A stretch of 62,841 nucleotides of DNA, the filler included, from Rhabdomonas costata (lineage: Eukaryota), in the NCBI GenBank assembly GCA_019059605.1. It is 43 parts of 43 records of this genome, joined end to end, with 100 filler letters (N's around TTAATTAATTAA, not from the genome) between each part and the next. Parts side by side here need not be neighbours in the genome. Positions count along the whole stretch, not along the records: positions 42,457 to 43,819 come from JAHMHO010018174.1; positions 43,920 to 45,282 come from JAHMHO010018175.1; 41 more parts are not named here. One strand, written 5' to 3'. Below the pieces are notes generated by a model, which did not search any database, was not told the origin of the DNA, and saw only the letters and a program-made list of their open reading frames with translations. The stretch's first letter is position 1, and each line of letters begins with the position of its first letter. Shown piece by piece: positions 42,919-45,282 of this stretch. The translations under genes and the position numbers were made by a program.

Positions 42919-44336
42919 TGTTGGACACAAGACAAAAAGACTGAGGATGCCAGTATAACGATCATTAAAATCAACATTATTTTGTACAGAAAAGAAACGC
43001 ACGACACTGCGTCGCAACGCTTCGGTGAAAAGTCCACAGGCACATAGCAATAAGCACACAACAAAAAGCAAAGAGCGAACAAAAACGTCGGGGAGACAAT
43101 GAAGTGTAAAGGTTGAATCACAACAAGTATAATTGCAAATTTTGCGTAACGGAATATAAAATGAAGAAATGTCGGTGTATTCTGGTATGCTGGAGGGAGC
43201 GTCGTCAATGCCAAGCCACTCCTGAGGAGTGAGGAATGTGGCGGGATCCGGGCAGGGGACGACACCAGCCAGAGTTATTATTGCGGGTGGGACCGCCAGA
43301 CGAGCAACGAGGAGAAATTTTACGAAGGACGAAAGACGGTGAAGCCTCTCGTTGACACCATTTAGCGGTCTTTTTCCAAACGAACGGATCTTCATCAGTG
43401 AAGCAGAGTGAAAAACACAGGAACCGTTGCCTGAAGGAATTTCACGCGCAAAGCCAAGTAGCTGCATTTCTGGAAACCCCAATATTCCTTTCCACTATCA
43501 GAATCCCTGCAGGACACATGCAGAGGGTCCACATACAACATGTACCACTAGCAATTGGATATTAGCAGTGAAAAGGCAACACAATGGAAAAATCGGAGAG
43601 GCTGGGGTTCCCCGAAAATGAAACAGCACAAGGAAGACGGAGCGGCAAGCGACGAAGGTCTAGCTGACGCGCTTCGGTCAGCGGGCGTTGCCTATGCCTT
43701 GGGCTGCCCTCGCGGCGAAGGAGGCAGCCAAGCACTTCATGCAGCAAACCTTATGAAAGGAAACGCAAAAGTATATTCCAGTTTTCCGTATTGATAATTT
43801 TTTCGATTGCCCCCAAACCNNNNNNNNNNNNNNNNNNNNNNNNNNNNNNNNNNNNNNNNNNNNTTAATTAATTAANNNNNNNNNNNNNNNNNNNNNNNNN
43901 NNNNNNNNNNNNNNNNNNNGGTTTGTGGTCAATTTCTGGCTTCGCGCCCCACTGCTCTCGAACTTTTGCTCAATGATCCACTTGTCGTCGCACGTGAGGA
44001 GGAGCTTATCATATAATCTCTGCCCGATTTTCCTGTCCGCTACAAAGACCTCCACCTGTGTGAATGGGAAATGTTTTCCCACCCTTGTTGTGGTGGTAGT
44101 AATTGTAACTGCCTTCAGGCAGTTCATCAACTCTCTTTCTGGGACGATGGTAACAATGTTTCTACGAAGCTCACGGAGTCGGCTTGGAGCTGGCGGCATC
44201 CCGATCGGAAAGATTACAGATTACAGTGATACTCGACATGGCGATAAGCAGCAAGCTGTTAAAAAGGCAGTTGGCTGTTGAACAGACGTCCAGTGATCGA
44301 TATAATAATGTATAGACTTTACAATTAATTATATTT

Positions 44337-44344
44337 TCAATTTT
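44337..44344 (-). promoter_or_regulatory. AAAATTGA, Mimiviridae early-promoter-like motif
   Basis: The minus strand reads ttatAAAAATTGAaaatataattaattg in the AT-rich gap after the pseudogene stop. An 8-mer like this can arise by chance in AT-rich DNA. Confidence 0.5.
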
Positions 44345-44345
44345 T

Positions 44346-44390
44346 ATAAATGCATCATATATTAACTAAATTAACATATGATTTACTTAT
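44346..44390 (-). terminator. Imperfect hairpin at the pseudogene stop, like Mimivirus hairpin-rule transcript ends
   Basis: atcatatattaa-ctaaa-ttaacatatgat: 12-bp stem with 1 mismatch and a 5-nt loop, extendable to ataa/ttat. Confidence 0.5.
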
Positions 44391-44997
44391 AAATATTCGT
44401 CTATTGCTCTTATCGTTTCAATCCAATTTTTATGTTTATTTGCAATGAAACCATTGTCACTTTCACAATTTTCGCTCATTATGATATTAACTTTTCTTTT
44501 GTCATTAAACAATTTAACCATGATTGTTTTTGATATCGGATCATACTGTTCTTTATTTATAGAATGTAAACATGTGAAATCTCCTCCTCCTACTATAAAA
44601 AACGATTATAATCTATATTGTTAATTTTTGTTATCTTAAAATAATACAATTTTTTATATTTATTGAGATATGTATTGTTCAATATTTTTTCATAATTTGA
44701 TAGAAATTTATTAAATCTCTCAATGTACATATAATGTTGCCATTACCACAAAACCAATTTTTTTGTTTTTTAATTCCATGTTTTTTATTTTCATATGGTA
44801 TACTTTCATCTTTATGTTTATCCGATTGAAAACTTGAATTTGTCATATCCAATTTATCAAAGATATATTTTTTTTATAAATTCATCTGTTTTCATACCAC
44901 TTACAATGTAAATAATATATCCTAAGATATCATAACCAGTATTGTTGTAATTCTTTGGTATATAATTAAATGCATTTTTTAATGGAACATATGCTGG
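44387..44997 (-). pseudogene. Frameshifted beta-lactamase-related serine hydrolase (PF00144-like) in AT-rich, probably giant-virus-derived DNA
   Basis: Across at least 3 frameshifts: NYNNTGYDILGYIIYIVSGMKTDEFIKK/YIFDKLDMTNSSF...WFCGNGNIICTLRD/NKFLSNYEKIL.../GGGDF...IRAIDEYL*. Matches the YSNxGYxxLGxIIxxVSG...IFxPLGMxxS and GxGGxxSTxxDxxKF motifs. Confidence 0.8.
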
Positions 44998-45009
44998 TTA
45001 TATATATTA

Positions 45010-45282
45010 TTATTATATAATCATTATTTATATCATAAAATAATGGACTATCATAATCAAGTGTCAATACACAATGAATTATTTTTTATTTTCAAATTTA
45101 CATACATCTTTTCCTTTGTTCTTACAATTTACAATTAAAAAATTGTCAATATTTGTTTCTACATATTCTTTATATTTTTTATATAATTTGTTTATTATTT
45201 GTAGTTTACCATAATGATCTTTAATACTTGCACGTACTGAATCATGAGCAATATAATCACATGTATCTTTATAAAAAAAACA
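45010..45282 (-). pseudogene. Fragment of a second AT-rich, K/N/I/Y-rich ORF
   Basis: FYKDTCDYIAHDSVRASIKDHYGKLQIINKLYKKYKEYVETNIDNFLIVNCKNKGKDVCKFENKK, then a frameshift to IIHCVLTLDYDSPLFYDINNDY. Confidence 0.55.

What the first reader, a model, noticed from the sequence alone, without database searches (positions are those of the whole stretch)
44298..45282. Decayed giant-virus-like (Mimiviridae-type) DNA fused to host-like sequence, with a beta-lactamase-like pseudogene
Seen: composition drops abruptly at ~44298 from about 50% GC to roughly 20% GC (by eye). The minus strand holds two intronless K/N/I/Y-rich coding relics that the ORF track misses. One has the class C beta-lactamase/serine-hydrolase motif YNNTGYDILGYII..VSG..IFDKLDMTNS, is broken by at least 3 frameshifts and lacks its SxxK-bearing N-terminus. 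Known: Mimiviridae genomes are AT-rich and gene-dense, and endogenised giant-virus DNA occurs in protists. Inference: this is an endogenised, eroding viral element recording a past infection of this host. The frameshifts argue against a live co-amplified virus or symbiont.
Basis: partly seen in the sequence, partly recalled or inferred. Interest (0 to 1): 0.85.

Follow-up and report, generated by a model that had tools for sequence, protein, structure and literature searches.

The report
Broken giant-virus gene joined to host DNA
A 1-kb stretch of very AT-rich DNA from a Mimivirus-like giant virus, carrying a truncated and frameshifted serine-hydrolase gene, sits next to ordinary host-like DNA on one short amplified fragment, and it cannot yet be told whether the join was made in the cell or in the test tube.

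Summary
The window is 43 short contigs joined by spacers. In the contig 43920-45282, GC falls from 48.9% to 20.7% at 44299 (support 44291-44303). The minus strand of the AT-rich part holds the 3' two-thirds of a PF00144 (beta-lactamase-fold serine hydrolase) gene. It has three single-base frameshifts, and the first ~140 codons, which include the SxxK motif, are missing. Its relatives (53-61% aa identity) lie on gene-dense contigs of 18-36% GC. These contigs carry an NCLDV capsid gene, an aminoacyl-tRNA synthetase, topoisomerases and the Mimiviridae AAAATTGA promoter motif. In 185,579 prokaryote genomes only one distant relative turned up. Giant-virus origin is therefore well supported.

Endogenisation is not shown. 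The contig is a single whole-genome-amplification product with degenerate-primer remains at both ends, so only one molecule type supports the junction. The gene shows no decay by substitution: no stops, all invariant residues kept, ordinary branch length. At least one frameshift lies in a run of eight identical bases. Reads and the rest of the assembly could not be examined. I lean slightly towards a recent insertion (0.45) over an amplification chimera (0.38). The second "relic" is unverified. Interest is modest.

The parts
43920..43931 (+). Amplification-primer remnant at the contig's 5' end (10 G/T-only bases plus 2)
   Evidence: leading G/T-only run of 10; 29 of 43 contigs start this way. 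Primer design K10NN quoted in PMC10781638.
43920..44299 (.). Host-like segment, 48.9% GC
   Evidence: No similarity to other contigs of the window or to plasmids.
43921..44220 (-). Open frame of 100 codons in the host-like segment, running off the contig; unknown protein
   Evidence: No Pfam family, no usable Atlas hit, no homologue among longer proteins.
44291..44303 (.). Junction: composition change point (best after 44299)
   Evidence: log-likelihood gain 51. No G/T-only or A/C-only primer remnant at this place (sequence; internal runs listed).
44337..44344 (-). AAAATTGA, the Mimiviridae early-promoter octamer. It lies 42 nt after the gene's stop, and its first base is 45 nt before the junction.
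   Evidence: One copy alone is not beyond chance. In the 33 related loci 43 of 112 copies lie 25-75 nt upstream of ORF starts, against 2.5 expected. Motif described in PMC5294985.
44387..44389 (-). Stop codon (TAA) of the PF00144-like gene
44390..44596 (-). Gene segment E (frame 2): C-terminal part with GGGDF; family profile ~270-340
44597..44603 (-). Frameshift 3: one base missing relative to 7 intact homologues, at or beside a run of six; exact base ambiguous
44602..44715 (-). Gene segment D (frame 0): FNKFLSNYEKILN...; profile ~232-274
44714..44718 (-). Frameshift 2: one base missing relative to the homologues (GATT-TAAT against GATTATAAT), not in a long run
44718..44867 (-). Gene segment C (frame 1): IFDKLDMTNSSF...NWFCGNGNIICTLRD; profile 174-240
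44868..44875 (-). Frameshift 1: one base extra in a run of eight identical bases, the longest run in the gene
44875..44997 (-). Gene segment B (frame 0): ...YNNTGYDILGYIIYIVSGMKTDEFIKK (YxN motif); profile 143-181. Homology to the family begins here.
44998..45282 (-). AT-rich DNA upstream of the truncated gene, with no homology to the gene's 5' part or to anything found. It includes an open frame of 67 codons (45082-45282) and an AT palindrome-like stretch at 45000-45033.
45271..45282 (+). Amplification-primer remnant at the contig's 3' end (2 plus 10 A/C-only bases)

Best explanation
Bases 44300-45282 are a fragment of the genome of an AT-rich Mimiviridae-type giant virus (Nucleocytoviricota). 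The fragment carries the 3' two-thirds of a virus-typical PF00144 serine-hydrolase gene and the promoter-bearing spacer that follows it. The gene cannot make an enzyme: the part with the catalytic SxxK serine is gone and the rest is interrupted by three single-base frameshifts. The most likely state (inferred, not shown) is that this fragment is inserted in the nuclear DNA of the ~50% GC eukaryote that supplies the other contigs. The insertion would be recent, since neither composition nor protein sequence has drifted. On this reading it is inert DNA that marks past contact with such a virus. Shown: viral kinship, truncation, the frameshifts as sequenced, and the abrupt junction. Inferred: that the junction exists in the cell, and that the indels are real.
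For: Viral kinship:
- A search of 1.84 billion proteins with the 64-aa segment C found 15 proteins at E<=1e-3, the best at 64% identity.
- A profile of 10 relatives found 2 loci in IMG/VR. L001 is 21.5% GC on a 41.6-kb contig that CheckV rates 6% complete. L002 is 18.9% GC on a 73-kb contig.
- The same profile found 47 loci in metagenomes, 31 of them subfamily members at 17.8-36% GC.
- In 185,579 prokaryote species it found only 1 distant hit, at 26% identity.
- Neighbouring genes in these loci: NCLDV major capsid protein (L026); class I aaRS and a RING protein on L024, which is in the sister clade of the relic; topoisomerases IA and II, Erv1/Alr, DNA ligase, EsV-1-7 repeats, an intein-bearing helicase.
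- AAAATTGA sits 25-75 nt upstream of ORF starts in 43 of 112 copies, against 2.5 expected; four control words give 7-11.
- The relic is ~70% identical in DNA over 548 nt to L001.

Broken state:
- Three 1-nt indels. The 5' 517 profile positions are absent.
- In 32 of 33 related loci the gene lies in one open frame.

For a real insertion:
- One hypothesis explains truncation, frameshifts and the host junction together.
- The junction carries no primer remnant, so it is not two amplicons joined end to end.
Against: The junction lies inside one amplification product with primer remains at both ends, so a template-switch chimera made in the tube would look the same. None of the other 42 contigs is AT-rich.

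Nothing in the gene shows time spent as dead DNA:
- There are 0 stops in 198 codons, although 5.9% of single-base changes would make one.
- All 18 invariant family columns are kept.
- Median identity is 52.3%, inside the family's 35-59% range.
- Root-to-tip length is 0.865 against a median of 0.892.
- GC is 20.7%, as in the viral relatives.

One indel lies in a run of eight and one at the edge of a run of six, as polymerase or sequencer slips would. The raw reads and the rest of the assembly could not be examined.
Confidence: 0.45

Rival explanations
1. Amplification chimera. DNA of a giant virus (particles, an infected cell or free DNA in the sample) was co-amplified with the eukaryote's DNA. 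During primer extension a partly extended host strand switched to a viral template, giving one chimeric amplicon. The truncated gene is then either a feature of the virus's own genome or a second template switch.
For: The contig has the primer design's 10 G/T-only bases at the start and 10 A/C-only bases at the end. So do 29 and 24 of the 43 contigs, 19 at both ends. The primer is quoted in PMC10781638. The junction is perfectly abrupt. Viral composition and protein sequence are undrifted. No other AT-rich contig is in the window.
Against: It needs extra assumptions: a virus carrying a 5'-truncated copy of this gene, or a double chimera, plus three indels in about 600 nt. Among 33 related loci only 1 (L005) has the gene split. 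No purely viral contig is seen among the other 42, though with a rare template that is expected. How often this amplification chemistry makes chimeras was not established here. The search was seen only as a listing and nothing was taken from it.
Confidence: 0.38
2. The frameshifts are technical. This question is orthogonal to the two readings above. The source DNA would carry an open 3' part of the gene, and the three indels would be slips of the amplification polymerase or the sequencer in A/T runs.
For: There are indels only, with no stop and no loss of conserved residues. Indel 1 lies in the longest run of the gene (eight bases) and indel 3 at a run of six. Runs of 6 or more cover about 8% of the gene (51 of 608 nt, my sum from the run list), so two of three landing there is unlikely by chance (about 0.02, my arithmetic). 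The AT-rich part has 12.2 such runs per kb against 1.96 in the rest of the window.
Against: Indel 2 is not in a long run. Three consensus errors in 600 nt is a high rate. In-cell replication slippage gives the same pattern. The 5' truncation cannot be a base-calling error.
Confidence: 0.35
3. The AT-rich DNA comes from an AT-rich cellular organism (bacterial symbiont, organelle or another protist), not from a virus.
For: PF00144 is mainly a bacterial family, and the nearest Atlas clusters for the 64-aa piece are bacterial. Some subfamily members (P0003, P0004) come from less AT-rich short contigs of unknown origin.
Against: The subfamily was found in 1 of 185,579 prokaryote species, and only at 26% identity. 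Relatives at 53-61% identity sit on intronless, ~65-93% coding contigs with an NCLDV capsid gene, an aaRS and the Mimiviridae promoter motif. There is no match in phage or plasmid collections. No tRNA or rRNA was found in the contig.
Confidence: 0.07

Closest known systems
Endogenous giant-virus (Nucleocytoviricota) fragments in eukaryote genomes
   Same: Virus-derived, compositionally foreign DNA with a broken gene next to host sequence.
   Different: Here there is only 983 bp on a single amplification product. No second junction, no hallmark gene and no independent support for the join are available. There is also no drift in composition or protein sequence.
PF00144 beta-lactamase-fold serine hydrolases (S12 peptidases, family VIII esterases, PBP-related proteins). 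The nearest solved structures by profile are 2qmi (Pbp related beta-lactamase, E 8e-23), 4gdn (Flp) and 3tg9.
   Same: Intact relatives reach the Pfam cut-off (109 and 83 bits against 27) and have SxxK (FSCSKP) and YxN (YNN). The relic keeps YxN.
   Different: The relic lacks the SxxK part. The subfamily is far from true class C beta-lactamases (19-29 bits against a cut-off of 415) and from every NCBIfam equivalog. No activity is known.
Mimiviridae gene organisation with the AAAATTGA early-promoter motif (PMC5294985, passages seen)
   Same: In the related loci the motif peaks 44-53 nt upstream of ORF starts. The relic contig has one copy in the spacer after the gene.
   Different: In the relic contig, host-like DNA begins about where the next gene's start would be expected. 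One copy is not beyond chance.
Chimeric products of degenerate-primer whole-genome amplification (universal primer + K10NN, PMC10781638, passage seen)
   Same: The contig carries the primer's degenerate part at both ends and joins two unrelated compositions.
   Different: There is no primer remnant at the junction, so a chimera can be neither shown nor excluded from the sequence alone.

Membership tests
PF00144 beta-lactamase-fold serine hydrolase | Significant match to the family profile | tested here: met
   The pieces alone are weak (E 0.0025 and 0.066, below the 27-bit cut-off). They are collinear, though, and match a profile of the closest relatives at E 1e-17 to 1e-27. Those relatives pass Pfam's cut-off.
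PF00144 beta-lactamase-fold serine hydrolase | Catalytic SxxK motif | tested here: not met
   It is absent from every frame of the contig. Homology starts at profile column 143. Relatives have FSCSKP. The relic is a gene remnant, not a working member.
PF00144 beta-lactamase-fold serine hydrolase | YxN motif (second catalytic element) | tested here: met
   YNN in segment B, aligned to Y160 of 2qmi and to profile positions 143-169.
PF00144 beta-lactamase-fold serine hydrolase | Third motif (K/H)-(T/S)-G | tested here: inconclusive
   Most relatives have H-x-G before GDF, some have N or G there. In the relic this codon lies at frameshift 3.
Class C beta-lactamase proper | Score above the NCBIfam bla_class_C cut-off (415 bits) | tested here: not met
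   Intact relatives score 19-29 bits.
Nucleocytoviricota / Mimiviridae-type DNA | Closest relatives lie in giant-virus genomic context | tested here: met
   2 IMG/VR loci; capsid gene on L026; aaRS, topoisomerases, Erv1 and ligase; promoter motif enriched 17-fold upstream of ORFs; 1 distant hit in 185,579 prokaryote species.
Nucleocytoviricota / Mimiviridae-type DNA | Hallmark gene (MCP, PolB, A32) on the same molecule | tested here: not met
   The 983 bp hold only the hydrolase remnant and unassigned DNA. The rest of the assembly is not held.
Endogenous viral element | Host-virus junction supported by independent molecules | not testable with these tools
Endogenous viral element | Signs of neutral decay or amelioration | tested here: inconclusive
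   Three indels and a truncation, but no stops, no excess divergence and viral GC.

The most novel reading that the evidence does not exclude
The junction is real. A Mimiviridae-type virus left a very recent insertion in the nuclear genome of this ~50% GC eukaryote, whose ORFs mostly match no known family. The break falls in the promoter-bearing spacer between two viral genes. That would give a direct virus-host link for a clade of giant viruses known only from metagenome contigs.
Probability: 0.45. Interest if true: 0.45.

Novelty: new member of a known kind. Interest (0 to 1): 0.3.

Why it matters
If the junction is biological, it ties an uncultured clade of AT-rich Mimiviridae-type viruses, seen so far only on metagenome contigs, to a particular eukaryotic host, and it dates the contact as recent. 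Giant-virus insertions in protist and algal genomes are already well known, so this would be one more case and a small one. If the junction is a chimera, the lesson is practical: composition breaks inside contigs that are single amplification products must not be read as integration without read-level support. As a by-product, the PF00144 subfamily appears to be typical of these viruses and nearly absent from prokaryote genomes. It has no known function.

Tried and rejected
- Whole assembly: not held. The scan for other low-GC contigs and NCLDV markers could not be done.
Junction and indels could not be checked in reads, and read laying was therefore not used.
- First Pfam calls failed on stop codons and were repeated with corrected coordinates.
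- Word-index search with the 64-aa piece among longer proteins: nothing. Close-relative scan of viral contigs with the same piece: nothing. Relatives appeared only with the exhaustive HMMER search.
- PDB search with piece C: nothing.
- Host-like 100-codon frame: no Pfam family, no usable Atlas hit, no homologue among longer proteins. The host lineage stays unplaced.
- Upstream 67-codon frame: no relative in viral contigs, none among longer proteins, only low-complexity hits to the 50 loci, and a length within chance.
- PF04451 search in the record behind L001: no match; L002's record is not held. Both are fragments, so this says little.
- Phage and plasmid collections: no match to either half.
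- Introns as the cause of the frame changes: rejected, because the pieces abut or overlap and align base for base with intronless homologues.
- Another genetic code (stops read as residues): rejected, because homology truly changes frame.
- Two amplicons joined end to end by the assembler: rejected, because there is no primer remnant at 44291-44303.
- Literature on PF00144 in giant viruses: the search listed work on metallo-beta-lactamase-fold proteins only. In PMC11364636 I saw passages only, none on this family. I make no claim that the family is undescribed.
They may list such genes.
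Full report
**What the window is.** The 62,841 bases are not one locus. They are 43 contigs of 1362-1372 bp joined by N...TTAATTAATTAA...N spacers. The finding lies in the contig 43920-45282 (1363 bp).

Most contigs begin with a run of G/T-only bases and end with a run of A/C-only bases. With runs of 8 or more, this holds for 29 of 43 at the 5' end, 24 of 43 at the 3' end and 19 at both. 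Five contig starts and two contig ends also keep part of a constant G/T-rich word.

That word with ten K (G/T) and two N is the universal primer of a degenerate-primer whole-genome amplification, quoted in PMC10781638 (passage seen). That this chemistry is sold under particular kit names is my recollection only.

The focal contig has exactly 10 G/T-only bases at its start and 10 A/C-only bases at its end. It is therefore one amplification product.

**The observation.** GC changes after base 44299 (2-log support 44291-44303), from 48.9% over 380 nt to 20.7% over 983 nt. Among 447 300-bp windows elsewhere in the window the minimum is 33% and the median 52%. No other long low-GC stretch exists.

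On the minus strand the quoted peptides are present in different frames. Piece B (44997-44860) matches PF00144 positions 143-169 (E 0.0025). Piece C (44873-44682) matches positions 170-232 (E 0.066). Both are below Pfam's cut-off but adjoining. Piece B aligns at the YxN motif of PBP-related beta-lactamases in the PDB (2qmi, E 0.017). The Atlas puts piece C among PF00144 clusters (first hit 0.94; 26 of 30 hits in that set).

**Relatives.**
- An exhaustive HMMER search with piece C found 15 proteins at E<=1e-3. The best full-length ones are 64%, 56% and 49% identical. All are unnamed or 'hypothetical' metagenome proteins.
- An alignment of ten of them (A1) shows a distinct subfamily with FSCSKP (SxxK), YNNTGYDILGYI, NWYCGNA, CTLRDYNKFL and GAGDF.
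- Used as a query, A1 found 2 loci in IMG/VR. L001 is on a 41.6-kb contig at 21.5% GC that CheckV rates 6% complete. L002 is on a 73-kb contig at 18.9% GC. Both are about 90% coding.
- It found 47 loci in metagenomes. Of these, 31 (L004-L034) belong to the subfamily, at 17.8-36% GC.
- In one genome for each of 185,579 prokaryote species it found a single distant hit at 26% identity.
- The relic is 53-61% identical in protein to the better loci and 69.7% identical in DNA over 548 nt to L001.

**Are the relatives viral?**
- Neighbouring ORFs include an NCLDV major capsid protein on L026, about 6 kb from the hydrolase gene (PF04451 and PF16903).
- L024, in the relic's sister clade, has a 1021-aa class I aminoacyl-tRNA synthetase and a RING protein.
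- Other neighbours are topoisomerases IA and II, Erv1/Alr, an ATP-dependent DNA ligase, EsV-1-7 repeats, UCH, DnaJ, DEAD helicases and an intein-bearing helicase.
- The Mimiviridae early-promoter octamer (described in PMC5294985, passages seen) occurs 112 times in the 33 loci. Of these, 43 copies start 25-75 nt upstream of an ORF start on the same strand, against 2.5 expected. Its reverse complement and three similar words give 7-11.

A search for the capsid family in the record behind L001 found nothing, and L002's record is not held. Both are fragments.

**State of the gene.** A profile of the subfamily (344 columns) matches the three minus frames in order: B (columns 140-181, frame 0), C (174-240, frame 1), D (232-274, frame 0), E (about 270-340, frame 2). 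A DNA alignment with seven intact homologues places three single-base indels:
- one extra base in a run of eight (44868-44875);
- one missing base at about 44714-44718, outside any long run;
- one missing base at about 44597-44603, beside a run of six.

A DNA profile finds homology only from 44993 to 44411, which is profile positions 518-1107. The first ~140 codons, including SxxK, are therefore absent. The 285 nt upstream match nothing.

In 32 of 33 related loci the gene lies in one open frame; L005 is the exception. As sequenced, then, the gene is dead.

Shuffled sequence of this composition gives an open stretch at least that long in 596 of 2000 trials. The plus strand holds an 80-codon one. 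No homologue was found.

**Is it eroding?** Apart from the indels and the truncation there is no sign of neutral decay.
- The 198 in-frame codons hold no stop, although 5.9% of all single-base changes would create one. P(no stop) is 0.23 after 24 substitutions and 0.03 after 60.
- All 18 invariant columns of A1 are kept.
- Median identity to 42 family members is 52.3%, within their own range of 35-59% (3 of 46 rows were dropped for covering under 70% of the region: L005, L030, P0002).
- Root-to-tip length in a FastTree tree is 0.865 against a median of 0.892.
- Composition equals that of the viral relatives.
- One indel lies in a run of eight and one at the edge of a run of six. Such runs cover about 8% of the gene (51 of 608 nt, my sum from the run list).

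This pattern fits three things equally: very recent inactivation, slippage in the cell, or slippage in the tube or sequencer. The truncation is the stronger sign of a dead copy.

**The junction.** After the gene's stop (44387-44389) come 42 nt, then one AAAATTGA on the gene's strand (44337-44344). The composition change falls 45 nt after the first base of the motif. In the related loci the next gene's start codon most often lies 44-53 nt after that base. One copy of the octamer is not beyond chance (my estimate is about 0.3 expected), so this is only suggestive.

The junction shows no G/T-only or A/C-only primer remnant. It is therefore not two amplicons joined end to end by the assembler.

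The host-like 380 nt hold a 100-codon open frame with no known relative. They match nothing else in the window or in plasmids.

The other contigs look eukaryotic and poorly known. Only 5 Pfam families turned up in the 150 longest ORFs: FHA, GT17, TMEM128, HisKA and GT4. Other features are one tRNA, CA and GT microsatellites, and a degenerate ACCCTA array.

**Weighing.** An insertion explains the junction, the truncation and the frameshifts with one event, but it must be recent. A template-switch chimera explains the junction and the undrifted sequence. It needs in addition a virus that already carries a truncated copy, or a second switch, and either real or technical indels.

I could not examine reads, the assembly or earlier notes. 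I put insertion at 0.45, chimera at 0.38, a cellular AT-rich source at 0.07, and the rest on combinations not foreseen. Separately, I give 0.35 to at least some of the indels being technical.

**Comparison and novelty.** The gene belongs, as a remnant, to a virus-typical branch of PF00144. The nearest solved structures are PBP-related beta-lactamases, Flp and D-peptidases. It is not a class C beta-lactamase in the strict sense.

Endogenous giant-virus DNA in eukaryotes is a known kind (recalled; no paper on it was read here). This would be a small new member if real, or an amplification artefact if not.

Interest is modest at 0.3. The main value is the caution about single-amplicon junctions and the lead to a host for an uncultured viral clade.

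Noticed in passing
whole window; contig ends, e.g. 27814-27837, 40994-41020, 42327-42356: The window is 43 contigs of about 1363 bp joined by spacers. 29 of 43 start with 8 or more G/T-only bases and 24 of 43 end with 8 or more A/C-only bases. Several keep part of the universal amplification primer, so untrimmed primer sequence is in the assembly.
   Followed up: yes
L001, L002, L004-L034: A PF00144 subfamily (FSCSKP...YNNTGYDILGYI...NWYCGNA...GAGDF) appears typical of AT-rich Mimiviridae-type contigs and was found only once, distantly, in 185,579 prokaryote species. Longer forms exist: L022 has 777 aa with two PF00144 stretches, L021 has 568 aa, and P0005 has 671 aa with a C-terminal extension. 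Function unknown.
   Followed up: partly
L005:2035-2979: This is the only one of 33 related loci in which the hydrolase gene is not in one open frame (53% of the match lies in the longest frame). It may be another broken copy or an assembly error.
   Followed up: no
L002:12890-15520 (-): Helicase gene interrupted by an intein with a LAGLIDADG homing endonuclease (Hom_end_hint, Hom_end, ResIII, Helicase_C).
   Followed up: no
L016:1046-3028 (-): A 661-aa ORF on a viral-type contig with a weak Cas12f1-like TNB domain match (E 6e-6, at about the cut-off). It may be a TnpB-like transposon protein.
   Followed up: no
window 29878-29989: Degenerate ACCCTA array (18.7 copies, 73% matches), telomere-repeat-like, inside a host contig.
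   Followed up: no
window 17572-18079 and 40446-40724: Tandem duplications of 266 bp (1.9 copies, 99%) and 138 bp (2.0 copies, 96%) in host contigs. There is also an (AACAA)n array of 109 bp at the start of the contig at 39528.
   Followed up: no
window 60140-60212 (-): One tRNA gene (67 bits), the only Rfam match at gathering threshold in the window.
   Followed up: no
window, among the 150 longest ORFs (positions not reported by the scan): A HisKA histidine-kinase domain and a GT4 glycosyltransferase stand among otherwise eukaryote-like ORFs such as TMEM128, GT17 and FHA (2018-2644, minus strand). They could be host genes or a trace of bacterial DNA in the amplified sample.
   Followed up: no
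window 45000-45033: An AT-only palindrome-like stretch (82% over 34 nt against its own reverse complement) lies exactly where homology to the hydrolase gene breaks off. It is a possible site of the deletion or rearrangement that removed the 5' part.
   Followed up: partly
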